Positions 41,522 through 64,000 of a DNA stretch of 64,000 nt are shown one piece after another. Position 1 is the first letter of the stretch. The number at the start of each line of letters is the position of its first letter. Position numbers and translations under genes: made by a program. The notes under the pieces are model-generated. The model did no database searches, was not told the DNA's origin, and was given only the letters and a program-made list of their open reading frames with translations. This DNA comes from Alphaproteobacteria bacterium (GTDB lineage: Bacteria > Pseudomonadota > Alphaproteobacteria > Bin95), in assembly GCA_965205265.1 (NCBI GenBank), contig CBDBGH010000003.1, forward strand, positions 5,024,001 through 5,088,000, written 5' to 3'.

Positions 41522-41522
41522 C

Positions 41523-45099: not shown

Positions 45100-45113
45100 T
45101 GCGTTGCTCCCCT

Positions 45114-49087: not shown

Positions 49088-49191
49088 CATTGCAATCCGA
49101 TTGACATGGCAATCGGGCAAGCATAGACACGGCAATATCGGGAAAGACCATGCCCGGGAGTCGCCCCGGTTGTCCGGGAAGGGGGAGGCGG

Positions 49192-50052: not shown

Positions 50053-50123
50053 CGCTTCCGCCACCCGGACGCAAGCCGGTCCGGGACGATATCTGCTGAC
50101 GACCCGGTATCCATGCCAACGGG

Positions 50124-51893
50124 CTATCCGGCCAGAGCGGCATCCGAAAGGACAAGCTGGACAGACTCCTGGCCGCGCCAGTCGTCGGCGCGGAGCGTGC
50201 CCGCGACGTGCAGGGGCCCGCCACCGGTATTGAGCAGCGCCTGGCCGAGCGGCGTTTCGGCGGAACGGAAAGCGATGGCCGCGAGCCGCCCGGGGCCGGC
50301 GTCGGCGAAATCGGCCCGGATGTGATTCTTGCCGACGATGCGGGCGTAGCGCACGCGCAGGTCCGGGAAGGCGAACACCGGTTCCGGATTGCCTCGTCCG
50401 AAGGGCTGAGCCGCCTCGATGTCGCGGAGGAGGGCGCGCGACGCTCCCGCAACCGACAGGCCCGCGTCGATATCGAGAGGAGGCGTATGGCCGCCCGCAG
50501 GGACCAGCGGTCCGAGGCGCTCTGCAAGGAAGGCCTCGAACGCCGCCCGTTTCCCGGCTTCCAATGTGAATCCCGCCGCCATGTCGTGGCCGCCGCCCGC
50601 CTCGAGCAGGCCGGCATTGCGGGCCTCGAGAATTGCGGGACCGATCGGCACGCCGGGGATCGACCGGGCGGAGCCGCGCACCTGTCCGCTGTCGACGGCG
50701 CCGACGAAGGCCGGACGCCGGTACCGGTCCACCAGGCGGCTCGCGACGATGCCGACAACCCCCGGATGCCAGCCTTCGCCGAACGCGAAGACAAGGGGGG
50801 CGTCATCTGCCGGCGAACAGGCAAGGGCGCTGCCGAGCACGTCGGCCTCCACCTGCCGGCGCGCGCTGTTGAGGCGGCTCAGAATGTCGGCGATGCTGAT
50901 TGCCTCCTCCGTGTTCTCGGTGGCAAGCAGTCGTGCCCCCAGGCCGGAGTCGCCTATACGTCCGCCGGCATTGATGCGCGGACCGAGAAGAAAGCCCAGA
51001 TGATAGGCGGTAGGCCGCCCCTCGACGCCGGCGGCGGCGAGCAGGGCGGTGATGCCGGGATTGCCTCGCCGGTCCATCACGTCCAGGCCACGGGCCACGA
51101 GGACGCGGTTGAGTCCGTTCAGCTCCATCACGTCGGCGACCGTGCCGAGCGCCACAAGATCCAGCCAGACGCGCGGGTCCGGTTCCGGGCGGCGGGCATC
51201 GAAGTGGCCGCGCCTGCGGAGCACCCGGTTGGCGGCGACGACGAGCAGAAAGGCAACCCCGACCGCCGCGAGACCGCCGAGGGCGCCGGTCTCGTCCTCG
51301 CGGTTGGGGTTTACGAGCGCCAGAGTGCGGGGCAGGCGGGCCTTGGGCAGGTGATGATCGACCACGATGCAGTCGAGCCCCAGACCGGCGGCATGCTCCA
51401 GCGGTTCCAGAGCCGTTGTGCCGCAATCGACGAGAACCACCAGCCGGTGACCTTCAGCGGCAAGGCGGTCGAGAGCCGTCTCGTTCGGACCGTAGCCTTC
51501 GGTCATCCGGTCCGGAACATAGAGCCGGACATTGCCGCCGACGGCCCGCAGGAAGCGCGCCAGCAGGGCGCCCGAAGTGGCGCCGTCCACATCGTAGTCG
51601 GCGAATACGGCGATGGTCTCGCCGCCCTGCGCGGCGTCGGCGATGCGTTCCGCGGCGGTGTCCATCTCCTTCAGGGAGGAGGGGTCGGGCAGCGACGTCT
51701 TGAGCCGGGGCTTGAGGAAGCCCGCCACGGTGTCCGGAGTCACGCCGCGGTTGGCGAGCACGCGCGCCGTTATCTGCGGGAGTCCCTCGGCGCGGGCGAT
51801 CGCGGCGGCGGCGCGTGCGTCCCCCGGGCGCTCGCGCCAGACGCGGCCCGAGAGCGAGCGCGAGACGCCGAGAAAAGGGGAGGAGGCGTTCAT
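50124..51893 (-). CDS. recJ: ssDNA-specific exonuclease RecJ
   Basis: DYDVDG, VDCG, DHH, LGTVAD, PRINAGGR, GSARS, GGGHDMAAG. Confidence 0.97.
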   Translation of the reverse strand: MNASSPFLGVSRSLSGRVWRERPGDARAAAAIARAEGLPQITARVLANRGVTPDTVAGFLKPRLKTSLPDPSSLKEMDTAAERIADAAQGGETIAVFADYDVDGATSGALLARFLRAVGGNVRLYVPDRMTEGYGPNETALDRLAAEGHRLVVLVDCGTTALEPLEHAAGLGLDCIVVDHHLPKARLPRTLALVNPNREDETGALGGLAAVGVAFLLVVAANRVLRRRGHFDARRPEPDPRVWLDLVALGTVADVMELNGLNRVLVARGLDVMDRRGNPGITALLAAAGVEGRPTAYHLGFLLGPRINAGGRIGDSGLGARLLATENTEEAISIADILSRLNSARRQVEADVLGSALACSPADDAPLVFAFGEGWHPGVVGIVASRLVDRYRRPAFVGAVDSGQVRGSARSIPGVPIGPAILEARNAGLLEAGGGHDMAAGFTLEAGKRAAFEAFLAERLGPLVPAGGHTPPLDIDAGLSVAGASRALLRDIEAAQPFGRGNPEPVFAFPDLRVRYARIVGKNHIRADFADAGPGRLAAIAFRSAETPLGQALLNTGGGPLHVAGTLRADDWRGQESVQLVLSDAALAG

Positions 51894-52189
51894 CCCCGGG
51901 CCTTGAAGGCGTTGTCGAACCACTCGCCGAGGGAGCGGTCGCAGAAACCGGAGAACCGGGCGATTTCGAAGACGGCGCCGGTCGGGGGATCTTCCCGGTC
52001 GCCGTCCCGCCTTTTCCGGATGCCTGCGGCGGCAAGGATATCGTCCGGCACCGTGCCGTGACGGGCCGGAACCAGGAAAGCGGCGGGAGCGAAGGCCCAG
52101 GTGCCCCGATAGGCGGCGGACAGGCGCTCCTTCACCGCGTCGGCGGCCTGCGCCGACTTCTCCTCGAGGATGACGACGAACGGGATCAC
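51890..52189 (-). CDS. Hypothetical protein
   Basis: 99 aa, coupled by 4-bp overlaps to both neighbours. Confidence 0.65.
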   Translation of the reverse strand: MIPFVVILEEKSAQAADAVKERLSAAYRGTWAFAPAAFLVPARHGTVPDDILAAAGIRKRRDGDREDPPTGAVFEIARFSGFCDRSLGEWFDNAFKARG

Positions 52190-52992
52190 CGGGTGCCGCC
52201 CCCCGCGGTTTCGCCAGGCTCCGGAGGATGGTTCATTGCGTAGCTTGCCTGGACGGTAACGGTAAGAAGGACTCCCTCACCGGAATGGATGGCGATATCG
52301 GGGGCGACGGCAGCGCTCGGGGGCATACCGGATTCCGCACGGACCATCGCCTTTCCCATGGACATTCTGGCGGTGGGGGCGAGGGCGATGCTCATCGCAT
52401 CGCCCAGAACCATACCGGCGGCCTCTGCAAGGGCGTCGGCCCGCCTTGCGGCGTCCGCAAGGGCCCGGGTCTCGAGTTCCTTTTCCTTGCTGAAACGCTT
52501 CTCCGCATCCACCGTGAAGGTCAGGCTGCGGAATCCCGCCGCGCCTGCCGCGAGAACCTGGCGCAGGAAGCGGGGCGCGGCCTCGGCGTCGTCCGGATTG
52601 ATGGGCCGCGCCACCTCCATGGAGAGACGGGCGACATGGACAGGCATCCGCATCCGGTCGCCGGAGGTCGACCTGAGGTTTTCCTGCCTGACATGGAGAT
52701 GGAGGCCGTGCGTCCTGACTTCGCTGGCCAGGTCGACCCCGGAGCGCCCGAGAGCCTTCTTTACCTCCCCGAGCCGTTCGGCGAGCTGGTTGTAGGCACC
52801 CAGGGGGTTCTCCGTGCTGCGGCCCTCGACGTCGATGTCTATGCTGATGCGGTCGGGCGGGAGATAGGCGCTGGCCGCGCCGTAGGTTTCGATGGTGTGA
52901 TGTACCGGGGCGGTCGCGCCCGCGTCACCGCCGCCGGACAGGATGAAGGCCATGGCGCCGACGGCGAGCAACCAGTTTCGGAGAGCGGTCAT
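52186..52992 (-). CDS. SIMPL (DUF541) domain protein
   Basis: Signal peptide; G.A....PD...I; RALADAARRADALAEAAG..LG. Confidence 0.85.
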   Translation of the reverse strand: MTALRNWLLAVGAMAFILSGGGDAGATAPVHHTIETYGAASAYLPPDRISIDIDVEGRSTENPLGAYNQLAERLGEVKKALGRSGVDLASEVRTHGLHLHVRQENLRSTSGDRMRMPVHVARLSMEVARPINPDDAEAAPRFLRQVLAAGAAGFRSLTFTVDAEKRFSKEKELETRALADAARRADALAEAAGMVLGDAMSIALAPTARMSMGKAMVRAESGMPPSAAVAPDIAIHSGEGVLLTVTVQASYAMNHPPEPGETAGGGTR

Positions 52993-53173
52993 CGGCGAGA
53001 GTCCCTTGCGTGTGGAATCGTGAGGGTCAGGCGGATTTCACGCCAAGGGTATGCAAACTGGATTGTCAATGCAATCGGATTATGTATTTTCGCTCGTCCT
53101 GTGCGTCGGGCCGGGTGACCGGCCGATCACTCGACCATTGCGGAATCTTCACATGAGGGGCCGTGGCGGACCC

Positions 53174-54439
53174 ATGAAGGAAGTCCGGGAGATCGAGGTT
53201 TGTGTCGGGCGGCAGGCCGTCCCGGCAGGAACACTCCATTTCGCGAATGACGGCAAACGCCAGCAGAGCGTGTTCCGGTATCGCATGTCGTGGCTGGAAC
53301 GCGCCGACAGCTTCGCCCTCGCCCCGGACCTTCCGCTGACGGACAGCCCTCATGCCCGGTCCGGGCGTGGAGCGGAGGTCCGGACGGCGCTGCCCGGCGC
53401 CCTTGCGGATGCGGCCCCCGACAGCTGGGGCCGGAGGCTCCGCCGCAAGGCTCTCGGGCGCTGGGCCAGCGAACTCGACCATCTCCTCCTGGCCAGCGAC
53501 GAAACCCGTCAGGGAGCCTTGCGGTTCCGGGATGAGCGGGGCGGCCTCTGTTCACGGCAACAGCGGGACATTCCGGAACCGGACGACCTCGCGCGCGTGC
53601 GGTGGCTGGTGGATCTGTGGGAGAACGACCCGGACGGCGTCGATGAGGCCTCGGTCCGGGAACTGGCCGACTGGATCGGGTCGCTTGGAGGCGCCAGGCC
53701 GAAGGCCGGTATCAGGGATTCCGGCGGGCTGTATCTCGCCAAATTCACCTCGGTATGCGACACGCGCCCGGTTGCCCGCCTTGAGGTGGCGACGCTGCAG
53801 CTCGCCGGGGCCGCCGGAATCGGGGTCCCCCCGGCCCGGCTTGCGATGGGCCGGACGGCGCGGCCGGTCGCGGTCATAACGCGCTTCGACCGCCGGGCGG
53901 AGGACCGGATCCCCTATCTCTCGGCTCGCTCCCTTCTGGGAATGGGACACGAGGGGGGCGGATGGCACACGGATATCCTCGACGCGATGCTGCGTCACGC
54001 TCCCGATCCGGCGCGGGAGATGGAGGAGCTTCACCGTCGCCTGATGTTCTCCATCCTGGTGTCCAATACGGACAACCACCTCCAGAATATCGGGTTCCTG
54101 TACGCTGGCCAGGGTCGGTGGCGTCTGGCGCCGGCCTTCGACATCAATCCGCAGCCGGACCGGGAGCGGCAACTGAAGACGGGAATTGCGGAGGAGTATG
54201 GCAGGGACGCCTCGATCGAGGCGGCGGTCGAGGCGGCTCCCTACTTCGATCTGGACGAGGACCGGGCTCTCGCCAGTCTGCGCGCCATGGTGTCCGTCAT
54301 CCGCGACCAGTGGGAAGCCCGTCTGCGGGGAACCGGCCTGACGGGTCGGGAGATTGCGGCCTGCAGGGCGGCGTTCGAACATGACGAGACCGTCAAGGCC
54401 GGGCGGATGACGGCTGCGCGGGTTGCGGCATCCCGGTAG
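53174..54439 (+). CDS. hipA: HipA-family kinase toxin
   Basis: APDSWGR, GSLGGARPKA, RFDR, NTDNHLQN, RLAPAFDINP. Confidence 0.92.
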   Translation: MKEVREIEVCVGRQAVPAGTLHFANDGKRQQSVFRYRMSWLERADSFALAPDLPLTDSPHARSGRGAEVRTALPGALADAAPDSWGRRLRRKALGRWASELDHLLLASDETRQGALRFRDERGGLCSRQQRDIPEPDDLARVRWLVDLWENDPDGVDEASVRELADWIGSLGGARPKAGIRDSGGLYLAKFTSVCDTRPVARLEVATLQLAGAAGIGVPPARLAMGRTARPVAVITRFDRRAEDRIPYLSARSLLGMGHEGGGWHTDILDAMLRHAPDPAREMEELHRRLMFSILVSNTDNHLQNIGFLYAGQGRWRLAPAFDINPQPDRERQLKTGIAEEYGRDASIEAAVEAAPYFDLDEDRALASLRAMVSVIRDQWEARLRGTGLTGREIAACRAAFEHDETVKAGRMTAARVAASR

Positions 54440-54496
54440 CCCGGGGGCCGGTATCGGCCCGGCAGCCGAAATCCGGCATGGAAACGGTTTCGGCGT

Positions 54497-55222
54497 CTAT
54501 CCGGACTTCGTTCCCTGGGAACTCCAGTTCTCCGCCGGGATGCGCCGGTACAGCGTGGACCGGCTGATCCCGAGCTGTTTGCATACCTCGGCAACGGGCA
54601 CGCCCTCCCGAAGCAGTTTCAATGCCGCCCTGTCTTCCTTTGCCGTGACGGGCGAGCGCCGTTTGCGCGCCGATTCAGCGCCTGTCCCCGTGGCATCGTC
54701 GTGCTGTGCGGGATCCGGCGGCGGCGCGGCAGCGTCCGGCTCTTCGCCGACCATGGCCGCGACCAGCCGCCCGGCCATCGCCGTGTCCATGCGCGCCGTA
54801 TCGATGTCCTCGGCGAGAGAGCGCAGATGGCACCCGCTTCTGGCGAGGCTGTCGAGAACCGAGGCAAGGTCGGATGCCGACGACACGAGGTGATCGAGGC
54901 CCGGCACGACCAGGGCGGCCCCGGGCGGCAGGGAGGCAACAAACGGGGCCAGCTCGGGCCGGCTTCCGTCCGGCTGCACGGTTTCCGCCACGGTGCGGCT
55001 GCAGCTCTCCTGAAGGGCGGCAAGAGCGGCGCGGTGCCGATTCCGCGCTTCGGTCCCGGCACCCGCGGGGCCGGAGGAGTAGCCGAAGAGTTCAACGGCA
55101 ACTGCCGGGCCGGATGTCGAAGCGCCGCCGTCTGCGGCCGCGGGCTTCGCGATGGAAGCGACGCCCCGGCGCAGGGATTGCAGAATCCGGCCTGCCATGG
55201 TCTGGGTGCGAGCTGCGGGCAT
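54497..55222 (-). CDS. Degenerate serine-recombinase/resolvase-like protein with C-terminal HTH
   Basis: RPEL...L.PG..LVV..LD.L, LRSLAEDIDT, LGISRSTLYR; the YARVS and DRLxR motifs are altered. Confidence 0.7.
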   Translation of the reverse strand: MPAARTQTMAGRILQSLRRGVASIAKPAAADGGASTSGPAVAVELFGYSSGPAGAGTEARNRHRAALAALQESCSRTVAETVQPDGSRPELAPFVASLPPGAALVVPGLDHLVSSASDLASVLDSLARSGCHLRSLAEDIDTARMDTAMAGRLVAAMVGEEPDAAAPPPDPAQHDDATGTGAESARKRRSPVTAKEDRAALKLLREGVPVAEVCKQLGISRSTLYRRIPAENWSSQGTKSG

Positions 55223-55351
55223 CTCCTTTCCCCTTCTCTACTGTTATCCTGCTGCGGTTGATTATAGGCTGAAATACCCGGAGCCGTGGCTTGGGATTTT
55301 CTGGCGCCCCGGATAGGGTCCGGATCCGGACGTGCAGCGGAGGAAGGGCAG

Positions 55352-55726
55352 ATGGACCGCGAATATCCCGATGACAGGGACATCCTGTTTCACCTGAAGC
55401 GCCGTCTTCGGGAAAAGCTGGACGGAGACAGGGACCATCTTCTCAGGATCGCCGGGGTCGAGTGCTCCGTCGATGCGCTCGGTGCCCATGTCGGCGCCGT
55501 GGTCCCGGACGACTATCGCCGGCTGGGCCTGATCCTGGCGGAAACGCCGGATCTGGGGTTTCCTGACGAGGTCTATCTGGGTGACGACAGCGTTTTCGCC
55601 ATCATCCGGAGGAGCATCGGGACAGAGCTGATGAAAGAGGCCGAGGCCTGGTTGGAGGCGGCACAGGAAGAAGCGGAGGCGGGACGGGAACGGGACGGGC
55701 TTCCCGAGCCGGCGCCGACGGCGTAG
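55352..55726 (+). CDS. Hypothetical protein (paralog pair)
   Basis: RDILFHL.R.LR...VP.D.RRLGLILAETP.LGFPDE, shared with the next gene. Confidence 0.75.
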   Translation: MDREYPDDRDILFHLKRRLREKLDGDRDHLLRIAGVECSVDALGAHVGAVVPDDYRRLGLILAETPDLGFPDEVYLGDDSVFAIIRRSIGTELMKEAEAWLEAAQEEAEAGRERDGLPEPAPTA

Positions 55727-55776
55727 CGGGCGCCGTCGTCCGCCTGCATGGGACATGAAACCATAGGATTCCAGGA

Positions 55777-56136
55777 ATGCCGGCTAGAGAACCCGAGAGG
55801 GATATCCTGTTTCATCTTGAGCGCGAATTGCGCGCCGACATGGAGAATTACAGGGGCGAATTGGTCGCCTCCGGTTCGTCCGACGAAGAAGAGGCCGAAC
55901 TGCACGCTCTCGTCGAGGCCCTGGTTCCCGAGGACCACCGGCGCCTGGGCCTGATCCTGGCGGAAACGCCGACGCTGGGATTCCCGGACGAGGGCGTGAT
56001 CGAGGACGACAATGTCTTCCCGGTAATCCAGAAGTCCATCTACCGCCACCTCATGTCGAAGGCCGATGTCATTCTCCAGCAACTCCGGGAAGAGTCCCGC
56101 CATGACCTGCCGGAACCGGCTCCGGGGGGTTGCTGA
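55777..56136 (+). CDS. Hypothetical protein (paralog pair)
   Basis: Tandem paralog of 55352..55726. Confidence 0.75.
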   Translation: MPAREPERDILFHLERELRADMENYRGELVASGSSDEEEAELHALVEALVPEDHRRLGLILAETPTLGFPDEGVIEDDNVFPVIQKSIYRHLMSKADVILQQLREESRHDLPEPAPGGC

Positions 56137-56373
56137 AGGGATCCACAAGGAAAGGGTGGGGTCGATGAAGGAAACGCAGGGCCGGGACGGATCGAACGGC
56201 CGGCGCCGGGAGCCGGCGAGCGCGGGCGGGGCGTTTCGCGATGCCGGCCTGGAGAGATTCCTTTCGGAATCAAACGCGGCAGACGCCGGCCTGTTGCTGG
56301 TCGAAGAGCGCCGATCCGTGTCCTGATCCACTGTCAGGCGCCGTCCGGCATTCGTGTGCCGGGTTGAAGGAAG

Positions 56374-56493
56374 ATGCTGGAGGCCGGCATCGCCTTCGAC
56401 ATGAAGTCGGGCAGCGTCGCCTCGATCCTGGAGGCGCTGGGCCCGCGACGCCCGGCCCGTATTCGAGGACATCAGGAAGGAATCCCAGGATGA
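56374..56493 (+). pseudogene. Possible HipB-like HTH remnant
   Basis: MLEAGIAFDMKSGSVASILEALG; ATGA overlap with hipA. Confidence 0.35.
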
Positions 56494-57893
56494 CGCTCCG
56501 GGTCTGGGTCAATGATCGCCCTGTAGGCCGCCTCGACAGACATGGCAGGGGGACGACCTTCGTCTATGACAGGGATGTCGATCCGGCAGACGCCGTGAGC
56601 CTGACGATGCCCGTCAGGATCGCCTCCTATGACAGCGCCTGGGGCCTCCTTCCGGTTTTCGACACGAACCTGCCGGAAGGGATCCTGCGGCACAGGATCG
56701 AGACGTCCCTCGCGAAGGCCCATGGGCGCGTGGAACCGATCGACATCCTCCGCCTGACCGGGCGGAACCAGATCGGGCGCATCAGGGTCCTGCCGAAAGA
56801 TGAAGCCCCGGTGCGCCAGACTTCCGTCGGCAGCATCGACGAACTTCTCGAACGAAAGGCCACCCAGGCCCTGGTGGACCGGATGATGGACCGTTACGCA
56901 GCGCATTCCGGCGTGTCCGGGGCGATGCCGAAGGTCCTCGTCGAGACCGGTCCGGGCGCCGGGGCAGGGGACCGGGACGGCCGGGAGCCGCGGCATACGA
57001 TCCAGGCCCGGGCCTACATCCTCAAGTTCGACACGGAGGAACTCCCGGGCCTGTCCCTGAACGAGTTCTTCTGTCTTGAGGCGGCCCGGGAGGCCGGAAA
57101 CGACACGGCCCGGGCCCGGCTCAATGCCGACGGGCGCATGCTGGCCGTGCGCCGTTTCGACGGTGCCGACCCCGGATCGGGAACCGGGGCAGACTGGCGC
57201 CTCGGCTTCGAGGACCTCGCATCGCTCAACGCCAGGACGGCGCGGGACAAGTATTCCGGCAGCATGGAACGCGACCTCTTCAGGCGCGTCGGGGAGTTTT
57301 CCGGAGACCGCAGGAGGGAGAACCTGGAGGCCCTCTTCAGGCTCTGCGTTACCAATATCGCCATCCGGAACGGGGACGCGCACCTCAAGAACTTCGCCCT
57401 GCTGTTCGAGGATGCCGACAGGGGCCCGTTCACACTGGCCCCAGCCTATGACCTTGTGACCACCACGGCCTGGATCAAGGCGGACATGATGGCTCTGACC
57501 TTGGGGGGCTCGAAACGCTGGCCAAAGCCCTCCGCCGTCCGGCAGATGGGCGCCAGGGCCGGTCTGTCCCCGAAGGCAACCCGGGACATCGTCGCGGAGG
57601 TCGGGGCCGGCCTGCGCGCCGTCATGCCGGCCATGCTCGAGGCGTTCGAGGCGCATGGGGAGGGCGCGACCGGACGCAGGGTCGCGGCCTCCTGGAACGA
57701 AGGGCTCACAACGTCCCTCGGCGAGGAGCCGGGAATCGCGGCCACGAAACAGACCCGGGGCGGGCTTTCGCGGGGACAGGCAGGGGAACCGCCCGCTGAC
57801 GCGGTTGCCGCCTATCCTCCCGCAGTGGCAGGGAGCCGGTTCCTCCCGGAGCCGTCCCCGCCGGGTGACCCGACGGACCCGTTCAGTACATGA
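56490..57893 (+). CDS. hipA: HipA-family kinase toxin
   Basis: VSLTMP, NLPEG, SGVSGAMPKV, NGDAHLKNF, LAPAYD. Confidence 0.92.
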   Translation: MTLRVWVNDRPVGRLDRHGRGTTFVYDRDVDPADAVSLTMPVRIASYDSAWGLLPVFDTNLPEGILRHRIETSLAKAHGRVEPIDILRLTGRNQIGRIRVLPKDEAPVRQTSVGSIDELLERKATQALVDRMMDRYAAHSGVSGAMPKVLVETGPGAGAGDRDGREPRHTIQARAYILKFDTEELPGLSLNEFFCLEAAREAGNDTARARLNADGRMLAVRRFDGADPGSGTGADWRLGFEDLASLNARTARDKYSGSMERDLFRRVGEFSGDRRRENLEALFRLCVTNIAIRNGDAHLKNFALLFEDADRGPFTLAPAYDLVTTTAWIKADMMALTLGGSKRWPKPSAVRQMGARAGLSPKATRDIVAEVGAGLRAVMPAMLEAFEAHGEGATGRRVAASWNEGLTTSLGEEPGIAATKQTRGGLSRGQAGEPPADAVAAYPPAVAGSRFLPEPSPPGDPTDPFST

Positions 57894-58042
57894 TGTTTCC
57901 CGCAGACTTTGTGGCGGCCGTCCGTCGTTGAAAGAGCGGGGCCCCGGCGCGGGAATCCCCATAAATCGTCCCGGCAAGACAGTGGCGCCGGCAAATTTGA
58001 CTCTATGGTGCATCGATGGAGTCGATAGCCCGGAGGCACGGG

Positions 58043-59893
58043 ATGTCCACGCATGATTTCGGATCCGGTCCCGTAGCAGCCCATCGTCACCCGAATGGCG
58101 GCGGCTGGGTGGCCGAGACGGCATGGGTGGCCGACACGGTCTGGGTCGCGCCGGAGGCCACCGTGGCGGAATTCGCCCGGATATGGGACGAGGTAAGGTT
58201 GCTCGGGCGCGCCCGTGTATCCGGGCAGGCATGCCTGATGCAGCATGTCGTCGTATCGGGCGACGCTGCGGTGCGCGGCTCGGCGCGGGCGTTCGGGCAT
58301 GCCAGGATTGGCGGGCATGCCATCGTCGAAGGCCGGGCCACCCTGCTGGGCGGGGTAGTATTGGGAGGACACGCGCTCCTTTTCGGCTTTGCGGTAGCCT
58401 CGGGGCGTGCCGTTATGCAGGAGTGGTCACGGGTCGGCGGGGGCGCGGTCCTGGGCGGTCATGTGCATGTCCGCGGAGAGGCTCTGCTCGCCGGAATGTG
58501 TCAGGCCAGGGAGCACGCCGTGCTGGCAGGCCAGGTAAGGGCCATAGGCTCTTGCTATATCGGCGGCCACGCCGTGCTGGACGGAGTCGTGCGCATGGAT
58601 GGCAGTCCGGTTATCTGCGGCCATGTCGTGGTTTTCGGGTCGGGAGACGGCGTGCGGATCACCGGCCGGAGTCGACTTCAAGGGGCCCCCCGTATCAGCG
58701 GCAGCCCGCGGTTCATGGATGGGTGTTTCGTTTCGGGACATCCGGTGATCCGCGACAGGGTGGTCCTGCGCGACAAGGCGCGTGTCACCGGCGCGGCGCG
58801 GCTTGGCGACGATGTGCAGGTCACGGGCAACGGGGCCGTGGACGGGTCCGCGGAACTGCGCGGCGACCTGGTCGTGGATGGCGCCACGCGGCTCGGTGAC
58901 GACCTTGATGACCTCTTGCCCCCGCTGGACGCCGACGAGGGTCCGGGTCCCGCTGCAGCCGCAATGGAGCGGCAGGAAGTCACCGCGGGGTCGGCCGATG
59001 ACGAGAGGCGGCGGGCGGAATTCGACGAGATGCTGGAGGCGGCGGATTTCGGCTTGCCGGAAGAGGATGGACAGGACGGGGACCGGGGCGCGGCGCCACC
59101 GCGCGACGATGCGGAGCATGATGAGGAATGGGAGAGGTACAGACAGCGGCGGCTATGCCGGGTGTCGTCTCTCGAGACCGGGGGGCTGCGCGGGGATGCC
59201 GTGGATGGCGGACTGATTCTGAGCGCCGTTCCGCCGGCCCTGCGCCGGCCGAAGGAGCCGGAGCGGGCCGCGCCGGCCCGCCTGGAAGGGCCGGTCCCTT
59301 CCGAAGAGGCGCCGACGCAAGCGCCGTGGTGGCTTTCCGGCGCGGCGCCGACAATCGACGATATCCTCGAGCCTCTGGAGGCCTTGGCAAAAGAATTCGA
59401 GGATATCTCCGAACGCCCGGACGCCGCGGGACATGAGGAACCGGCTCCGGTGGAATTGATCTGCGTCAGCAGGGTTTCCCGGGAACACGGCCGGACCGGG
59501 TGGGCTACCCTGGCGGTCGGCCCCACGGAGGACGGCGGGGTAAGGGGCGGCTGGAATTCGGGGGACGCGCGGCGCCGCGCCGAGCTGATGTCGGTTATTG
59601 CGGGACTCGAGGCGCTGGAGGGCGCGGCGGATATCCGTGTGCGTTGTCCCAGTCACTATCTGCTGGACGGGGTCACCAATTGGGCGCGCGAGGCCCGCAC
59701 GAGGAACTGGCGCGGGAAACGCGGAACCAGGATTGCGCATGATGACCTGTGGCGCAGGCTCTTCGCCCTTACGGACGGGCGAAGCATAAAGTGGCTGTCC
59801 CGTCCGGACAGCGACAGCGCGGGGTGGACGGCCGTCCTGGCGGAAGCCGAACGGCAGGTCGCCGAAGCGCCCCGGGAAGATCGCACCTGGTGA
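58043..59893 (+). CDS. Beta-helix (hexapeptide-like) repeat protein fused to an inactive RNase H-like domain
   Basis: HRHPNGGGWVA followed by many (V/I)xG(H/D/R)A hexads; C-terminal RAELMSVIAGLEAL..SHYLLDGVTNW...NWR...HDDLW. Confidence 0.8.
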   Translation: MSTHDFGSGPVAAHRHPNGGGWVAETAWVADTVWVAPEATVAEFARIWDEVRLLGRARVSGQACLMQHVVVSGDAAVRGSARAFGHARIGGHAIVEGRATLLGGVVLGGHALLFGFAVASGRAVMQEWSRVGGGAVLGGHVHVRGEALLAGMCQAREHAVLAGQVRAIGSCYIGGHAVLDGVVRMDGSPVICGHVVVFGSGDGVRITGRSRLQGAPRISGSPRFMDGCFVSGHPVIRDRVVLRDKARVTGAARLGDDVQVTGNGAVDGSAELRGDLVVDGATRLGDDLDDLLPPLDADEGPGPAAAAMERQEVTAGSADDERRRAEFDEMLEAADFGLPEEDGQDGDRGAAPPRDDAEHDEEWERYRQRRLCRVSSLETGGLRGDAVDGGLILSAVPPALRRPKEPERAAPARLEGPVPSEEAPTQAPWWLSGAAPTIDDILEPLEALAKEFEDISERPDAAGHEEPAPVELICVSRVSREHGRTGWATLAVGPTEDGGVRGGWNSGDARRRAELMSVIAGLEALEGAADIRVRCPSHYLLDGVTNWAREARTRNWRGKRGTRIAHDDLWRRLFALTDGRSIKWLSRPDSDSAGWTAVLAEAERQVAEAPREDRTW

Positions 59894-59909
59894 CCGGACC
59901 CCGGCGCTG

Positions 59910-60374
59910 TCATGGTCCGGTCCAGAGGCCGAGATCGTGCAGTTCGCGACGCAGGGACTCCGGAAGCCCGCCATCGTGGTGAACGCCGCCGGCGAGGTCC
60001 GGGGGAGCATCCCTGCCCTCGAGATAGCGCCAGCCGCGGAGGAAGCGCACCGGCCGCGGCTCGACCGCGACATGATGGGGCGAGCACATAATGGCGAAGT
60101 GATTTTCGAAGAACGGATCGTACCGGGTGGTGAATTCGCGCACCGGCTCCACCCCGACAAACGGCATCCGGAACATCGTATGGTTCCGATAGACGAAATA
60201 GACCGACCCGCCTTTCAGTTCATCGACCCTCCTGGGGCGCTGGCGCGCCCATGATCCGTAGAGGGTCCCCTGCCGTTGCCAGAGACGACAGCGGCGCAGC
60301 CAGACCTCCAGTGTCGTTCGCTCCCCGTCGAGGAACATCGGCAGCCGCTGCAGCAGGTGCAGTCGGCTGCTCAT
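59910..60374 (-). CDS. DUF1489-like protein
   Basis: P.R.DEL.GGSVY.V...V.VEPRP.RF.RGWRYLE..DAPPDL...LR.EL.DLGL. Confidence 0.75.
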   Translation of the reverse strand: MSSRLHLLQRLPMFLDGERTTLEVWLRRCRLWQRQGTLYGSWARQRPRRVDELKGGSVYFVYRNHTMFRMPFVGVEPVREFTTRYDPFFENHFAIMCSPHHVAVEPRPVRFLRGWRYLEGRDAPPDLAGGVHHDGGLPESLRRELHDLGLWTGP

Positions 60375-60426
60375 GCCGGAGAGGACCGGGTCCATTGCGC
60401 GGGCTGGGGAGTGTCCGGCAGGCCGG

Positions 60427-62769
60427 TCATGCGGGTCCCGTGATCCGCTCGAAGCTGTCCCGGACGACGTCCGGCCAGGGCGGGGGAACGCCGGACACCC
60501 CGAAATCGCCGCTCGCATCGTCCCGACCGGGGGCGGGACGGGGCGTGTCCGGAGCGTGCCGGTAGAGCCCGAGGACGCGCTTCGAGTCCGGCCGGGAAGC
60601 GGCAATGACCACGGCCATTGTCATGGGGCGCAGCAGGTCCGGATCCTGGGAGCCGGTCTTCAACCGACGGGAGAACCCCCAAAACCGGTGCAGGGTTGAC
60701 ATGACGCGTGAGGAGACGCTTTCCACGACAACGGCCGGCCCGCCGTCCTTCCAGACCGATGTGAGACGGCTCATGCCCTTGCGGATCGACGATCTGTAAC
60801 GTTCGGGTTCGGCCATCTTGAACACCGGATGGTTGACGAGATCCATGGCCAGGAACCGCTCAAGCTTTTCCTGCGGCATGCCGCCGGCCGCCATGGCGTT
60901 GACACGGTCCCGGAATGTCGCCCAGCGCGCCGGGTCATGCCCGAGATATTCCCAAGGGGTCATGTTGCCCTTGGCCTCGTTTTCCTCGATGCCGCAGAGC
61001 GTCTTGTTGTTGAAACTGTTCCTGTGGCTCGGGACCCGGGAACGGGGCCAGATATGGTCGATATTGTAGCGCGGGGTGCGGCCGAACAGGGCGTCGAAAG
61101 AAATGGTGGCCCCCGTGTAGGGGCACCGCTTGCCTGTTTCTACCCAGAGCAGCCAGCGCTCGATCTGGTTGTCGGAAGGCTTCCGGATGCCGTTCCTCGC
61201 AAGGTCGTCCTTGGCGGCGTTGCGCTGGACGATCCGCCGGCGGCGCGCGATCTCGGCGATCCGAGGGTCCGGGTCCATGGCCAATTCGGTGGCAAACAGC
61301 GCCCGTACACGGTCCGGGCGTCCGAACCGGTCGGAAAGCGAGCGGGCGAGCGTACACATCAGATGGAAGGAATCGGCAGGCCGGTTCCGGCCGTCTTCGG
61401 CGTTGTCCTCCTGGCCGGGGAACACCGTCCGGCGCCACTGCTTCCATTCCTCGGTGTTGAGCAGGGTCGAGAAGCGGATGCCGCGCTCCAGCTGCGGAAG
61501 TATCGTTTCGAGGGCTTCCGCAGAGAACGGTTCCGCCCCGGCGCTCATTTCGAGCGCGGCGAGCGCCTCGGCCCGCCGGGCGGACAGACCGTACTCGCGG
61601 CAGAACCGCTGGGCGGCCGCGCGGCGCAAGGCGAGGCGCTCACCGACGGGCCGGACGATCGGCCGGTTATTCCCGTTGGCCCGGTAGTCGGCCTCCCAAA
61701 GCAGACCGGAAACCCGTTCGCGTATCTCGTCCCTGCGCGGATGGCGGTTCCATCGCTCGCCGAAAGCGGTTTGCAGGGCAACCTCGACCGGGTTGGCGGT
61801 CAGGCCGGCCTCGCCACCCTCCTCGAAATTGAACCGGGGCGGAATGAGGGTGCGGGAGTTGGCCCGGCCAACCGTTCCGGCCTCGCCCAGGGTGCGCCAT
61901 GCCTCGTCCCAGGACAGCGCTGCGCTGTTTTCGAGGGCTTCCCTGGCCTTGCGGCGCCGCTCCTGGCCTATCGGCCCGAGAATGTCCCGCACCTCGTTCC
62001 AGGACAGGAAATGACGGGCGCGAAGGGCATCAAGCAGCGCCGTCCGTTCAGGGTCCGAAAGCCTTCGGTCCTGCGGATAGACGATCGAAAGCGCATTGAG
62101 CTTGTCGAGCATCTGCTTTTCACGGGCGAGCCAGGTGCTCTTGGGGCAGAGTGGGGCCCCCGGCACGAAGGGACATTGGCCCGGGAACCGGTTGGGCGTC
62201 CAACTGTGCGGGCTGTCGGGGACCAGCGCGGCCTTGAGGCTCTGCCGCACCCCCGGAGCGGACAGCCCGTCATGATGGACCGCCTGACTGTCCCAGAGGA
62301 CATCGAATTCCTTCAGGAGATCCTCGCGGCATCCGGGTGGGCCCGGGAGGCTGTCGCGCCCCGACAGGCCCGTCCGGACCGCGCTGCCGGAGGCGATATA
62401 GAGGTCCTCGCCACGGCGGTGCTGCACAAGCTGAAAGAGGAGCCGCCCGAATTCCCGGCGCGCGAGCGCCTCGCCCCGGGCGGCTCGCAGCCGCAGGTGA
62501 GCGAGATCGCCGGTATCCGCGACCAGCCAGCGCCACTCGGCGGTATGCTGGTCGGGCAGGAGGCGGTGGGCGGCAAGCAGGCGTCGGGCCTGCCTGCGCC
62601 GGCCCAGGCCGTATCGCCGGGCGGCGCGGCGACGCGCCGGTCCGGCGACGATGTCGACGGGTTCCAGGCCGACCGAAAGGATCCGGCCGCCGTCCCCGTC
62701 GCCATCGCGTTCGACCACGGCATAGCCGACAAGGTTCGGTTGGACATTGAAACCGAAGGTCAGGGTCAC
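60427..62769 (-). CDS. Truncated type II-C Cas9 derivative (RuvC inactivated, HNH intact), 780 aa
   Basis: RuvC-I-like FGFNVQPNLVGYAVV, Arg-rich bridge helix, REC GQCPFVP..P..PKS...MLDKLNAL, HNH CPYTG..IDHIWPRS..NSFNNKTLC...NEAKGN.TPWEYL; GTGA-coupled start. Confidence 0.88.
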   Translation of the reverse strand: MTLTFGFNVQPNLVGYAVVERDGDGDGGRILSVGLEPVDIVAGPARRRAARRYGLGRRRQARRLLAAHRLLPDQHTAEWRWLVADTGDLAHLRLRAARGEALARREFGRLLFQLVQHRRGEDLYIASGSAVRTGLSGRDSLPGPPGCREDLLKEFDVLWDSQAVHHDGLSAPGVRQSLKAALVPDSPHSWTPNRFPGQCPFVPGAPLCPKSTWLAREKQMLDKLNALSIVYPQDRRLSDPERTALLDALRARHFLSWNEVRDILGPIGQERRRKAREALENSAALSWDEAWRTLGEAGTVGRANSRTLIPPRFNFEEGGEAGLTANPVEVALQTAFGERWNRHPRRDEIRERVSGLLWEADYRANGNNRPIVRPVGERLALRRAAAQRFCREYGLSARRAEALAALEMSAGAEPFSAEALETILPQLERGIRFSTLLNTEEWKQWRRTVFPGQEDNAEDGRNRPADSFHLMCTLARSLSDRFGRPDRVRALFATELAMDPDPRIAEIARRRRIVQRNAAKDDLARNGIRKPSDNQIERWLLWVETGKRCPYTGATISFDALFGRTPRYNIDHIWPRSRVPSHRNSFNNKTLCGIEENEAKGNMTPWEYLGHDPARWATFRDRVNAMAAGGMPQEKLERFLAMDLVNHPVFKMAEPERYRSSIRKGMSRLTSVWKDGGPAVVVESVSSRVMSTLHRFWGFSRRLKTGSQDPDLLRPMTMAVVIAASRPDSKRVLGLYRHAPDTPRPAPGRDDASGDFGVSGVPPPWPDVVRDSFERITGPA

Positions 62770-63230
62770 GGGAGCCTGCCAGGGGAGACGTCGGCGGCAC
62801 CGGCCTCCCGGGAGGACGAGGAGGGGCGACCGAACTCCTCCTCCACTTCCTCGAGCCAGGTCTGCACGCAACGGCGCGCATGGGCGCGCTGGATTTCGTC
62901 CGCATCGGCATAGCCGGGGATGCGTGACCAGTCGCCTGTAGTGACGGCGCGGTGCGCGTCCGCCGGGGACAATACGGCTCCTCCGCCGCGCGAGCAGTGG
63001 ACCGCGAGGACCTGGTCGTCGCGCGTGGTTCCGGAATCATCGGACCAGTAGATGTAGTATTCGGAGCGCACGAATCCGTTGCGCTCGCGCCATTCGGCCT
63101 GCAGCCGGGCACGTTCGTTCATCCGGGTGTCGAAGCCGGCGGCGTCAACGGTCTTCCCGAGACTGTTGTACTGGTCATGCTGTGCCGCCGTCGGTCCGGG
63201 CAGCAGGGCGCTCCAGCGCGTGTAGGACAT
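62766..63230 (-). CDS. Hypothetical protein (paralog pair upstream of the Cas9-like gene)
   Basis: MSYTRW..LLP.PT.AQ...NGFVR..YYIYW...DQ.L..H...DWS.IPGY. Confidence 0.78.
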   Translation of the reverse strand: MSYTRWSALLPGPTAAQHDQYNSLGKTVDAAGFDTRMNERARLQAEWRERNGFVRSEYYIYWSDDSGTTRDDQVLAVHCSRGGGAVLSPADAHRAVTTGDWSRIPGYADADEIQRAHARRCVQTWLEEVEEEFGRPSSSSREAGAADVSPGRLP

Positions 63231-63256
63231 GGGTGATCTCCGGCCGGGAACCGCTG

Positions 63257-63685
63257 TCAGCCGCCGGTTTCCGGGGCGGGCGGTGCCGGGTATTTCGCGA
63301 CCACGTCCGCAATCCACTGGCCAACGCAGGCGCGGACATTGGCGCGCTGGACTTCCCCGCATTCCGTGTAGCCCGGCACGCAGGACCAGTCGTCACCGTC
63401 CAGCGCGTTCCGGGCCTGTGCCAGGGTGATCCGGGTGCGCGCCCAGGGGCCGCAATAATGGATGCAGAGAAGCTGGTCTTCGCATTTGTCTCCGGACCCG
63501 GCGTCCCAGTAGATGTAGTGGTCGGCGCGCACGAACCCGTTCGCCCGGCACCACTCGTCAATGCGCTCGCCGTAACTCTCGACCCATTCGAGCGGCGATC
63601 CCGCCCGGGCATAGAGGTCCAGATACGCATCGAGCTGGGCCTCCGTGGGTTCGGGGAGCAGACTGATCCAACGCGAGTAGGCCAT
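63257..63685 (-). CDS. Hypothetical protein, paralog of 62766..63230
   Basis: MAYSRWISLLPEPTEAQ...NGFVRADHYIYW...DWSCVPGY. Confidence 0.78.
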   Translation of the reverse strand: MAYSRWISLLPEPTEAQLDAYLDLYARAGSPLEWVESYGERIDEWCRANGFVRADHYIYWDAGSGDKCEDQLLCIHYCGPWARTRITLAQARNALDGDDWSCVPGYTECGEVQRANVRACVGQWIADVVAKYPAPPAPETGG

Positions 63686-63724
63686 GGTTCCTTCCCTTTG
63701 TCCGGCGTGCATCGGCGTGTCGGC

Positions 63725-64000
63725 TCAGCCGACTTCGCCGCCCCAGAGATCGGCGACGAAGATCTGCCATGCGATCCTCTCGCGAAGCAGCCAGCCCTCG
63801 ATCTCGCCCCTCGGGACGTCGGACAGAGGTCCCTGCGGATGCACGAGGTGCCAGAGTTGGTGTTCCCCGGTCTCGTCGGCAAGGGGGACGAAACCGCAGG
63901 ACCGGGCCAGGGCCTGGCTGTCCCGGGGGACCGCCCGGAGCATGTAGTGCTTGTGGAGGCGGTCATCGCCGGCGTTCTCGCCGGCGAGGATGAGGAGATC
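63725..64000 (-). CDS. Hypothetical protein, 3' end (runs off the window)
   Basis: Open frame from the window edge to the stop at 63725. Confidence 0.5.
   Translation of the reverse strand, partial: DLLILAGENAGDDRLHKHYMLRAVPRDSQALARSCGFVPLADETGEHQLWHLVHPQGPLSDVPRGEIEGWLLRERIAWQIFVADLWGGEVG

What the first reader, a model, noticed from the sequence alone, without database searches (positions are those of the whole stretch)
59910..63685. Orphan minimal Cas9 derivative (dead RuvC, intact HNH, no PAM-interacting domain) embedded in a novel operon
Seen: a 780-aa Cas9-like protein in which the RuvC-I Asp is Asn (FGFNV), the RuvC-II IELAR-equivalent reads ALFATE and the RuvC-III HHAxDA-equivalent reads LRPMTMA. 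The HNH residues (DH...NNK...NEAK), a bridge helix and the REC blocks are retained. It stops cleanly just after the PPPWP segment, so WED/PI is missing. It is GTGA-coupled to two paralogous unknown genes and followed by a DUF1489-like gene, with no cas1/cas2, array or tracrRNA visible nearby. Inference: an exapted Cas9, such as an HNH nickase, a guide-RNA sponge/anti-CRISPR decoy against host II-C systems, or an RNA-guided binder using a distant RNA.
Basis: partly seen in the sequence, partly recalled or inferred. Interest (0 to 1): 0.86.

Follow-up and report, generated by a model that had tools for sequence, protein, structure and literature searches.

The report
Truncated RuvC-dead Cas9 gene module
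A shortened relative of the Cas9 gene-cutting enzyme, keeping only one of its two blades and lacking the part that picks DNA targets, is conserved with two unknown partner genes on a strain-specific island, so it looks like a re-purposed enzyme and not a dead gene.

Summary
Window 60427-62769 (-) encodes a 780-aa Cas9 homologue: TIGR01865 scores 186 bits against a cut-off of 100, and the predicted fold matches II-C Cas9 structures. All five RuvC catalytic positions are replaced (N/L/R/P/M), whereas 59-60 of 60 full-length relatives keep D/E/H/H/D. The HNH catalytic residues and the invariant bridge-helix arginines are kept. The last ~270 residues (end of RuvC-III, WED, PI) are absent, with no remnant nearby.

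It is not a decaying pseudogene. One other protein among ~15 billion (807 aa, 58% identical) shares every substitution and the truncation. Homologues of the upstream small acidic protein (56%) and the downstream DUF1489 protein (64%) sit on an ENA contig of the same length, 7340 bp. That implies a conserved three-gene module.

"Orphan" is true only locally. The genome has three full cas9 loci, one ~40 kb away and from the same Cas9 clade.

The function is unproven. My best guess (0.36) is a PAM-independent, RNA- or hybrid-directed HNH single-strand nuclease. The rivals are a crRNA/tracrRNA decoy, as proposed for a phage RuvC-dead Cas9 in 2023, and an HNH toxin held by an acidic partner. I rate it a new variant of a known kind.

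The parts
60427..62769 (-). Truncated Cas9 derivative ('tCas9'), 780 aa, GTG start. RuvC-like scaffold with all catalytic residues replaced, Arg-rich bridge helix, REC lobe, intact HNH; no end of RuvC-III, WED or PI.
60952..61125 (-). HNH nuclease domain of tCas9 (residues 549-606 of the 780-aa protein), with D571, H572, N588, N597 and K600 kept.
   Evidence: The Pfam HNH_4 match at residues 583-640 of the 814-aa reading equals 549-606 of the 780-aa protein. Residue tally.
62766..63230 (-). Small acidic protein, proximal paralogue (154 aa, pI 5.4). Its TGA stop overlaps the GTG start of tCas9 (GTGA).
   Evidence: No Pfam, PHROG or PADLOC family.
63257..63685 (-). Small acidic protein, distal paralogue (142 aa, pI 4.6), 38% identical to the proximal one. 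Its only database homologue (P0162, 56%) is on a 7340-bp ENA contig.
59910..60395 (-). DUF1489-family gene (161 aa), 31 nt downstream of the tCas9 stop. It is a divergent extra copy: the genome has three. Its best homologue (P0164, 64%) is on a 7340-bp ENA contig.
63725..64000 (-). 3' part of a 273-aa ORF that runs off the window (to window-equivalent 64546). It lies 40 nt upstream of the distal paralogue on the same strand. Whether it belongs to the module is uncertain.
   Evidence: no family found

Best explanation
This is a conserved, re-purposed descendant of a type II-C Cas9. It sits on a strain-specific accessory island and is encoded in a three-gene module: small acidic protein(s), truncated Cas9, DUF1489 protein.

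**Shown.** The protein keeps the parts of Cas9 that hold a guide:target duplex (bridge-helix arginines, REC lobe, strongly basic overall) and the HNH nuclease that cuts the strand paired to the guide. It has lost RuvC catalysis and the WED/PI part that reads a PAM and opens double-stranded DNA.

**Inferred.** It cannot perform canonical PAM-dependent interference. It most likely acts as a PAM-independent HNH nuclease or nickase on single-stranded or already opened nucleic acid paired to an RNA. Candidate substrates are ssDNA, R-loops or RNA:DNA hybrids, and possibly RNA. This would be the 'DNase H' and RNA-cleaving side activities of II-C Cas9 made into the main activity. The RNA could be borrowed from the resident Cas9 locus 40 kb away or be any transcript. 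The small acidic protein and DUF1489 would be regulatory or targeting partners. The likely arena is conflict between mobile elements, or between element and host.
For: **Identity and domain state**
- Cas9 identity rests.
- RuvC D/E/H/H/D is replaced by N/L/R/P/M here and by H/L/R/P/M in P0003, against 59-60 of 60 relatives that keep them.
- HNH residues are kept in both members.
- R48, R51 and R52 of the bridge helix are invariant in 62 of 62 rows.
- The C-terminal ~270 residues are missing in both members, with no remnant nearby.
- pI is 10.1, like the resident Cas9A at 9.9.

**Constraint**
- Identity to P0003 is highest in L1+HNH (69%) and in REC (53-64%). It is lowest in the RuvC-II remnant (40%) and the tail (39%).
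- The two members form a 100%-supported pair on a long stem (1.32) with short tips (0.26, 0.37). They are nested in a 98%-supported clade of 14 Cas9s that includes the genome's own Cas9A.

**Conserved module**
- P0003, P0162 and P0164 are each the best or only non-self homologue, and each lies on an ENA contig of 7340 bp.
- The proximal small gene and tCas9 overlap as GTGA.

**Mechanistic precedent**
- II-C Cas9s have an RNA-dependent ssDNA-cleaving 'DNase H' activity that needs neither tracrRNA nor PAM (PMC6282386, passage read).
- II-A and II-C Cas9s cleave ssRNA without a PAM (PMC5796797, abstract and passages read).

**Context**
- The island also carries an extra RNase HI, a beta-solenoid-RNase H fusion convergent with the module, an extra RecJ and an RNase T-like exonuclease. 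This is circumstantial only.
Against: - No guide RNA, anti-repeat or structured RNA was found. No match longer than 13 nt to any of the three repeats tested (the two host type II repeats and the window's mini-array repeat) lies in C3:5076000-5102000. Rfam gave nothing but tRNAs and chance hits on locus L024 (C3:5084001-5102000) and nothing in the window. The largest nearby gap folds no better than shuffles (z 0.56) and looks coding.
- WED and part of REC1, which I recall as holding the repeat:anti-repeat duplex in II-C Cas9 structures, are missing or shortened. Guide binding may therefore be weak or changed.
- No expression data exist.
- Only two family members are known, and I could not obtain DNA of the second. 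There is therefore no dN/dS estimate and no comparison of non-coding sequence.
- The conserved acidic partner fits an inhibitor-nuclease pair just as well.
Confidence: 0.36

Rival explanations
1. Anti-CRISPR decoy. The protein soaks up crRNA:tracrRNA of the resident II-C system (Cas9A), or competes with Cas9A, and so protects the island. This is the role proposed for a phage-encoded RuvC-dead II-C Cas9.
For: - Published precedent: PMC10910872 and PMC11656645.
- The genome has three full cas9 loci. tCas9's clade sits inside the clade of Cas9A, which is 34% identical over the whole length.
- The island is absent from 16 of 16 congeners, apart from paralogue hits.
- One spacer of another host array matches the island region at 33 of 36 positions, at C3:5102687.
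- One Cas9A-array spacer has a perfect 30/30 match elsewhere in the same chromosome. That pattern is often seen where interference is blocked.
- tCas9 cannot itself cut dsDNA in the canonical way.
Against: - Two features of the published case were tested and not met. No anti-repeat to any host type II repeat lies within ~10 kb. The only SNF2 gene is 1.5 Mb away.
- Loss of WED and shortening of REC1, 34% identity to Cas9A and a long stem branch all argue against tight mimicry of Cas9A's RNA binding.
- A sponge does not need strict retention of HNH catalytic residues, though the published case keeps them too.
- A sponge does not explain the two conserved partner genes.
Confidence: 0.27
2. Guide-independent HNH effector held in check by its acidic partner, working as a toxin-immunity or abortive-infection type module. 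The Cas9 scaffold serves only as a DNA-binding body, the small acidic protein is the inhibitor or sensor, and DUF1489 is an accessory.
For: - The small upstream gene overlaps the nuclease start (GTGA), as in many two-gene toxin-antitoxin operons.
- The partners are acidic (pI 4.3-5.4) and the nuclease is strongly basic (pI 10.1).
- The partner is conserved with the nuclease.
- Its predicted core fold resembles two small uncharacterised phage proteins (E 6.6e-4 and 1.7e-3).
- Two HipA toxin-like genes and a resolvase lie just beside the module, so this is a region of addiction or defence genes.
Against: - The REC lobe and the bridge-helix arginines, which serve guide:target duplex binding in Cas9, are as conserved as HNH. 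That would be unnecessary for an unguided nuclease.
- No known defence family matches any partner.
Confidence: 0.2
3. Non-functional relic of a cas9 gene that happens still to be open.
For: - All RuvC catalytic residues and the C-terminal third are lost.
- There is no cas1/cas2 or array beside it.
- The family is very rare: two sequences among ~15 billion proteins.
Against: - Two members at 58% identity both keep open frames of 780 and 807 aa, identical domain architecture and all HNH residues, with conservation uneven across domains.
- Codon third-position GC is 0.81, like neighbouring real genes.
- Neighbouring genes are conserved alongside.
- Real decaying relatives (P0021, P0049) show frameshift tails and loss of the HNH His.
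Confidence: 0.05

Closest known systems
Phage-encoded type II-C Cas9 with inactivated RuvC and active HNH (Altae-Tran et al. 2023, Science, PMC10910872; reviewed in PMC11656645)
   Same: - A II-C Cas9 derivative with the RuvC catalytic motifs inactivated and HNH kept.
- No CRISPR array beside it.
- It sits on foreign or accessory DNA in a host that has its own active-looking II-C system.
   Different: - This protein also lacks the C-terminal ~270 residues (end of RuvC-III, WED, PI).
- No SNF2 helicase neighbour.
- No tracrRNA-like anti-repeat nearby.
- Instead it is conserved with a novel small acidic protein and a DUF1489 protein.
- I could not see the paper's supplementary figures, so I cannot say whether their protein is full length or related in sequence.
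Canonical type II-C Cas9 (Nme1Cas9, GeoCas9/ThermoCas9; the genome's own Cas9A at C3:5127293-5130463)
   Same: - Same fold and domain order: RuvC-I, bridge helix, REC, RuvC-II, HNH, RuvC-III.
- Phylogenetically nested within a II-C clade.
- Passes the TIGR01865 cut-off.
   Different: - RuvC catalytic residues are all replaced.
- A ~22-residue deletion lies before RuvC-II, the REC1 segment and bridge helix are shorter, and there is a ~30-residue insertion in REC.
- WED and PI are absent.
- No cas1/cas2, array or tracrRNA in the locus.
OMEGA IscB with inactive RuvC and active HNH, found beside an inactivated Cas12 (mentioned in PMC10910872, passage read)
   Same: An RNA-guided nuclease lineage in which RuvC is dead and HNH is kept, suggested there to be a nickase.
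   Different: From recall, not tested here: IscB is small, lacks a REC lobe and carries its own omega-RNA. This protein has a full REC lobe and is nested inside Cas9.
Nuclease-dead exaptations of RNA-guided nucleases (TldR from TnpB, 10.1101/2023.11.30.569447; Cas12k and Cas12m, PMC11656645)
   Same: Loss of the RuvC active site with retention under selection for a new role.
   Different: Those have no active nuclease and keep their target-recognition parts. This one keeps an active-looking HNH and has lost the PAM-reading part. For the TldR paper I saw only the search listing and the start of the abstract. For Cas12k and Cas12m I read passages.

Membership tests
Cas9 (type II effector, TIGR01865) | Sequence and fold homology over RuvC, bridge helix, REC and HNH | tested here: met
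   TIGR01865 scores 186.1 bits against a cut-off of 100. The first ten Foldseek hits are all Cas9, E ~1e-22 to 1e-21. The alignment with Cas9A is collinear, 34% identity over 741 residues.
Cas9 (type II effector, TIGR01865) | RuvC catalytic residues: D in motif I, E in motif II, H-H..D in motif III | tested here: not met
   N, L, R, P, M at the five positions, where 59-60 of 60 relatives keep D, E, H, H, D.
Cas9 (type II effector, TIGR01865) | HNH catalytic residues | tested here: met
   D571, H572, N588, N597 and K600 are kept here and in P0003. HNH_4 scores 59 bits.
Cas9 (type II effector, TIGR01865) | C-terminal WED and PAM-interacting domains | tested here: not met
   The protein ends ~20 residues after PxPW, while relatives continue for ~270 residues. 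No remnant in C3:5070000-5102000. Pfam RuvC_III (PF18541) is listed for the full-length hits but not for P0002 or P0003.
Cas9 (type II effector, TIGR01865) | Locus with cas1/cas2, CRISPR array and tracrRNA | tested here: not met
   The nearest cas1 is ~38 kb away. The nearest type II array is ~37 kb away. No anti-repeat near the gene.
Phage/MGE RuvC-dead II-C Cas9 'biomimicry' anti-CRISPR (PMC10910872) | RuvC inactive, HNH intact, no array | tested here: met
Phage/MGE RuvC-dead II-C Cas9 'biomimicry' anti-CRISPR (PMC10910872) | SNF2 helicase neighbour | tested here: not met
   The only SNF2 match in the genome is at C3:3538882.
Phage/MGE RuvC-dead II-C Cas9 'biomimicry' anti-CRISPR (PMC10910872) | Nearby tracrRNA with an anti-repeat to the host repeats | tested here: not met
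   blastn-short with the two host type II repeats and the mini-array repeat gave no match above 13 nt in C3:5076000-5102000. The same search found Cas9A's own anti-repeat (22 nt, 95%) upstream of cas9A.
Phage/MGE RuvC-dead II-C Cas9 'biomimicry' anti-CRISPR (PMC10910872) | Encoded on a phage | tested here: inconclusive
   The region is strain-specific and carries IS elements, a resolvase, HipA genes, an adaptation-less I-G system and a 28-tRNA array. I found no phage structural, integrase or conjugation gene in the ORFs I scanned, and not all ORFs were scanned.
Phage/MGE RuvC-dead II-C Cas9 'biomimicry' anti-CRISPR (PMC10910872) | Inhibits host Cas9 immunity | not testable with these tools
   Needs an interference assay.
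Type II-D Cas9d (NF049971) | Score above the family cut-off | tested here: not met
   61.3 bits against a cut-off of 375.

The most novel reading that the evidence does not exclude
This would be the first natural Cas9 derivative that works without a PAM-interacting domain: a dedicated RNA- or hybrid-directed 'DNase H' or nickase. It would use only HNH and, with a novel acidic protein and a DUF1489 protein, form a previously unrecognised three-component system of mobile elements that attacks single-stranded or R-loop DNA (or RNA) of the host or of rival elements.
Probability: 0.3. Interest if true: 0.85.

Novelty: new variant of a known kind. Interest (0 to 1): 0.64.

Why it matters
Natural Cas9 relatives that have been turned to another use are very rare in print. 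The one described case is a full phage Cas9 with dead RuvC, proposed to be a decoy.

This one goes further. It has lost the whole PAM-reading and wedge part yet keeps an intact HNH site, guide-duplex-binding parts and two conserved partner genes.

If active, it would show what a Cas9 core can do without PAM recognition. It would give DUF1489 and a novel small protein fold a first functional context. It would also offer a compact (780 aa) natural HNH-only scaffold.

If it is a decoy, it would be a second, independent and more reduced example of Cas-protein mimicry. Reviewers of the field have noted that such mimicry is puzzlingly rare (PMC11656645, passage read).

Tried and rejected
- **DNA of the second member.** P0003 and the P0002+P0003 alignment were scanned against genome contigs, metagenome contigs (twice) and viral contigs. 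These returned only distant ordinary Cas9 or HNH matches, or nothing. So I have no dN/dS, no direct view of gene order on the 7340-bp contig and no comparative RNA search.
- **Relatives.** 0 of 36 other genomes in the family (which equals the order) have an orthologue. All matches are full-length cas9 at 42% identity or less.
- **Phage and plasmid collections** gave only distant ordinary cas9. A 25-kb megablast against plasmids gave two ~100-bp hits.
- **Complex prediction** for tCas9 with the proximal small protein returned 'no answer' (score 0.00). This is not evidence either way.
- **Sequencing runs.** No RNA holder is listed. Contigs of three other runs carry pieces identical to the window, so there are no variants for a selection test.
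- **The small protein.** No Pfam, PHROG, PADLOC or NCBIfam family. No usable Atlas hit. No PDB fold match at E <= 0.001. No profile similarity to Cas9, so it is not a detached WED/PI (probability 0.2).
- **DUF1489.** No PDB sequence match. The Atlas returned only DUF1489 clusters. No paper in the library mentions it.
- **Other short hits in the representative search** (P0018, P0021, P0040, P0049) are contig-end fragments or frameshifted genes, not further members.
- **P0017** is a full-length Cas9 with RuvC-II and RuvC-III substitutions, but it is not sister to this clade.
- **Promoter and terminator scans** gave nothing above shuffles near the module.
- **Literature.** Two broad searches on truncated, orphan or inactivated Cas9 mostly returned therapy reviews. 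The Zhang 2015 'DNase H' paper is not held, so I cite it only through PMC6282386.

Full report
**What is there.** Window 60427-62769 (minus strand) is a 780-codon ORF starting at GTG. It is identical to the protein the reference collection calls at this place (P0002).

It is a true Cas9 homologue:
- NCBIfam TIGR01865 scores 186.1 bits against a curated cut-off of 100, aligned to profile positions 206-661 of 1070.
- Pfam HNH_4 scores 59 bits.
- The best PDB sequence matches are Nme1Cas9 chains (E 1.7e-19), in three collinear segments: N-terminal RuvC-I/bridge helix, REC, and RuvC-II/HNH.
- An AlphaFold2 model built on a 62-row alignment has mean pLDDT 83.9. Its first ten Foldseek hits in the PDB are all Cas9 structures (ThermoCas9, Nme1Cas9, SaCas9, HpaCas9) at E 1.3e-22 to 7.7e-21.

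**Which parts are kept and which are lost.** I aligned the protein with its one close homologue (P0003) and 60 full-length relatives.
- The 60 relatives comprise 55 full-length (997 aa or longer) representatives picked from the top 90, with shorter rows left out. To these I added P0004, P0007-P0009 and the genome's own Cas9A.
- At the five RuvC catalytic positions, 59-60 of the 60 relatives have D, E, H, H, D. This protein has N, L, R, P, M, and P0003 has H, L, R, P, M.
- The HNH positions D571, H572, N588, N597 and K600 are kept in both.
- Three bridge-helix arginines (R48, R51, R52) are invariant in all 62 rows.
- Relative to Cas9A and P0004, both short proteins share five differences:
  - a shorter bridge helix;
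  - a shortened REC1 segment;
  - a ~30-residue REC insertion;
  - a ~22-residue deletion just before RuvC-II;
  - an end about 20 residues after the PxPW motif, where the full-length proteins continue for about 270 residues.
- By recall of solved II-C structures, those missing residues are the last RuvC-III strand, WED and PI.
- tblastn with that missing part of Cas9A and of P0004 finds nothing in C3:5070000-5102000 (best E 0.45). The loss is therefore clean and not a frameshift or a split gene.
- The protein remains strongly basic (pI 10.1, against 9.9 for Cas9A).

**Not a pseudogene.**
- A word-indexed search of 5.8 billion clusters found one close relative: P0003, 807 aa, 58% identity over 95% of the query, on a 7340-bp ENA contig.
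- A full HMMER pass over 1.84 billion 50%-identity representatives found no second cluster of this kind. The next hit is an ordinary 1061-aa Cas9 at 40%.
- The four short hits I inspected are contig-end fragments (P0018, P0040) or frameshifted genes (P0021, P0049). P0021 shows what decay looks like: D->V in RuvC-I, H->F in HNH and an Arg/Pro/Gly-rich out-of-frame tail.
- The two short proteins keep open frames, the same architecture and every HNH residue.
- Their identity is uneven in the way constraint predicts: 69% in L1+HNH and 53-64% in REC, but 40% in the RuvC-II remnant and 39% in the tail.
- In a maximum-likelihood tree they form a 100%-supported pair on a long stem (1.32 changes per column) with short tips (0.26, 0.37). 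The pair is nested in a 98%-supported 14-row clade that includes the genome's own Cas9A. That fits a burst of change after the loss of function, followed by conservation.
- I could not obtain the DNA of P0003, so there is no dN/dS estimate.

**The module.**
- Upstream on the same strand are two paralogous genes: 142 aa at 63257-63685 and 154 aa at 62766-63230, 38% identical, E 2e-30.
- The proximal one ends in a TGA that overlaps the GTG start of the Cas9-like gene.
- The distal one ends 26 nt before the proximal ATG, which is preceded by GGAG.
- Thirty-one nt after the Cas9-like stop begins a DUF1489 gene (161 aa; 83-84 bits against a cut-off of 25).
- The only database homologue of the small protein (P0162, 147 aa, 56%) lies on an ENA contig of 7340 bp. 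So does the best homologue of this DUF1489 copy (P0164, 151 aa, 64%). That is the same length and source as the contig of P0003.
- I take this as a conserved three-gene neighbourhood. The inference rests on equal contig length and source, not on seeing the contig.
- P0162 looks like a single copy that resembles the distal paralogue in its first half and the proximal one in its second half. The duplication may therefore be specific to this genome.
- The small proteins are acidic (pI 4.3-5.4) and have no family in Pfam, NCBIfam, PHROGs or PADLOC.
- The small-protein model (pLDDT 80.2) has no PDB match at E <= 0.001. It resembles two small uncharacterised phage proteins (E 6.6e-4, TM 0.71 on the target; E 1.7e-3). 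It shows no profile similarity to Cas9.
- DUF1489 here is a divergent extra copy. The genome has a canonical one (158 bits) and a third (73 bits) elsewhere.

**Surroundings.** The window is G000:C3:5024001-5088000.
- None of 16 congeners has this stretch. Matches to window 44001-64000 are only to paralogues (recJ, RNase H, hipA, the HNH of their own cas9, DUF1489).
- None of the 36 other genomes of the family has an orthologue.
- The window also carries:
  - IS21 istA/istB, a DDE transposase and a resolvase;
  - two HipA genes;
  - an extra RecJ, an extra RNase HI and an RNase T-like exonuclease;
  - a D12 methyltransferase, Fic and ankyrin proteins;
  - seven DUF6878 ORFs.
- It holds a complete type I-G effector set without cas1: cas5-6g at 21984-24308, cas7g at 24308-25257, cas8g at 25257-26234 and cas3g at 26141-29035.
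- It has a small CRISPR-like array near 35.5 kb.
- About 8 kb beyond the module lies an array of 28 tRNA genes.
- A spacer of a host array at C3:3410098 matches C3:5102687-5102722 at 33 of 36 positions, just past the tRNA array.
- I therefore call the region a strain-specific accessory island, probably of mobile-element origin. I found no integrase, phage structural or conjugation gene in the ORFs I scanned.

**Is it an orphan?** Locally, yes: there is no cas1 and no type II array within ~36 kb. The genome, however, has three full cas9 genes.
- Cas9A (1056 aa) is at C3:5127293-5130463, 40 kb away. It has cas1, an 11-12-repeat array and an anti-repeat upstream.
- Two identical copies of a second, more distant Cas9 (1150 aa) have long arrays.
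- tCas9 is 34% identical to Cas9A over its whole length, slightly closer than to any database protein except P0003.

**What it probably does.**
- Shown: it keeps what Cas9 uses to hold a guide:target duplex and to cut the strand paired to the guide. It lacks RuvC catalysis and the PAM-reading and wedge part.
- Inferred: it cannot open double-stranded DNA in the canonical way.
- II-C Cas9s are reported to cut ssDNA paired to an RNA without tracrRNA or PAM, the 'DNase H' activity (PMC6282386, passage). II-A and II-C Cas9s cut ssRNA without a PAM (PMC5796797, abstract and passages).
- The most economical reading is that this side activity has become the main one: a PAM-independent, RNA- or hybrid-directed HNH nuclease acting on ssDNA, R-loops or RNA, with the acidic protein and DUF1489 as partners (confidence 0.36).

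Against this reading:
- I found no guide. No anti-repeat to any host type II repeat lies near the gene, although the same search recovers Cas9A's own anti-repeat.
- There are no Rfam hits other than tRNAs, and no unusually stable fold in the largest nearby gap, which looks coding.
- The WED loss should weaken scaffold binding.

**Rivals.**
1. *A decoy that sequesters the host's crRNA:tracrRNA* (0.27). This was proposed for a phage-encoded II-C Cas9 with inactive RuvC, active HNH, an SNF2 neighbour and a tracrRNA matching the host repeats (PMC10910872; PMC11656645).
   - The setting fits, and a Cas9A spacer with a perfect 30/30 self-match at C3:4761995 hints that Cas9A interference may be blocked in this cell.
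   - Two features of the published case were tested and not met: no SNF2 neighbour and no anti-repeat. The divergence and WED loss also sit badly with mimicry.
2. *An unguided HNH effector held by its acidic partner*, in toxin-immunity style (0.20). The GTGA overlap and the charge complementarity fit. The conserved REC lobe and bridge helix do not.
3. *A relic* (0.05), for the reasons given above.

The complex prediction gave no answer and no RNA run is listed. Neither counts for or against any reading.

**Novelty.** The general idea, a RuvC-dead, HNH-intact II-C Cas9 on foreign DNA without an array, has been in print since 2023. Three things are new here:
- the further loss of WED/PI;
- the different and conserved partners (a novel acidic protein and DUF1489);
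- the lack of a linked tracrRNA.

I found no description of a PI-less natural Cas9 in four searches. The supplements of PMC10910872, which I could not see, may bear on whether their protein is also shortened. I rate it a new variant of a known kind, with interest 0.64.

Noticed in passing
window 21984-29035 (-) and ~35492-35900: A complete type I-G (I-U) effector set: cas5-6g, cas7g (GSU0053), cas8g and cas3g. There is no cas1 in the window. About 6 kb away is a small array of 3-6 copies of a 36-nt hairpin repeat ending ATTGAAGT, with ~37-38-nt spacers. It looks like an adaptation-less, island-borne CRISPR system. Its two clean spacers have no match in the genome.
   Followed up: partly
L024 10894-17696 (G000:C3:5094894-5101696), ~8 kb beyond the window end: Twenty-eight tRNA genes in 6.8 kb on one strand, interrupted by a nucleotidyltransferase (NTP_transf_8) gene. 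Arrays of this kind are known from large phages and some integrative elements (recalled).
   Followed up: no
G000:C3:5123544 (spacer) and C3:4761995-4762024 (target): Spacer 3 of the Cas9A array has a perfect 30/30 match inside a 443-aa ORF elsewhere on the same chromosome. This is self-targeting, which suggests that Cas9A is inactive or inhibited. The spacer is very GC-rich.
   Followed up: partly
G000:C3:3411449 (spacer) and C3:5102687-5102722 (target): A spacer of the array at C3:3410098-3412303 (36-nt repeat ending ATTGAAGC) matches the island just past the tRNA array at 33 of 36 positions.
   Followed up: no
G000:C3:3783551-3786247 (+) and C3:5452265-5454961 (-): Two cas9 genes with identical 1191-aa stop-to-stop translations, each with a cas1 of identical score but with arrays of different length (28 and 49 repeats). 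This is either a large duplicated element or an assembly issue; contamination is estimated at 7.3%. Two of their spacers resemble spacers of the array at C3:3410098.
   Followed up: no
L025 5517-7279 (G000:C3:5125517-5127279): A UPF0236-type transposase-like ORF (a second copy is at C3:5119685-5121067) and a DUF6788 ORF sit between cas9A and cas1.
   Followed up: no
protein P0017 (database, 1027 aa): A full-length Cas9 of the same 14-row clade with RuvC-II E->K and RuvC-III H->R and D->T, but intact RuvC-I and HNH. It is not sister to the truncated pair, so RuvC inactivation has happened more than once in this clade.
   Followed up: partly
window 48590-49087 (+), 50124-51923 (-), 58016-59893 (+): The island carries an extra RNase HI (160 bits) and an extra RecJ (~76% DNA identity to the chromosomal copy). 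It also has a 625-aa beta-solenoid protein with a C-terminal RNase H domain, convergent with the module.
   Followed up: partly
window 31902-48465 (-): Seven ORFs of 228-343 aa with DUF6878 matches form a tandem paralogue family interrupted by an IS21 element (istA 40016-41665, istB 39234-40019).
   Followed up: no
L024 4547-6092 (window-equivalent 64547-66092): Several small ORFs share a C-terminal motif (CRDRRWR..S.C.WP), and one looks like a zinc ribbon (seen by eye). This is an uncharacterised small-protein family upstream of the module.
   Followed up: no
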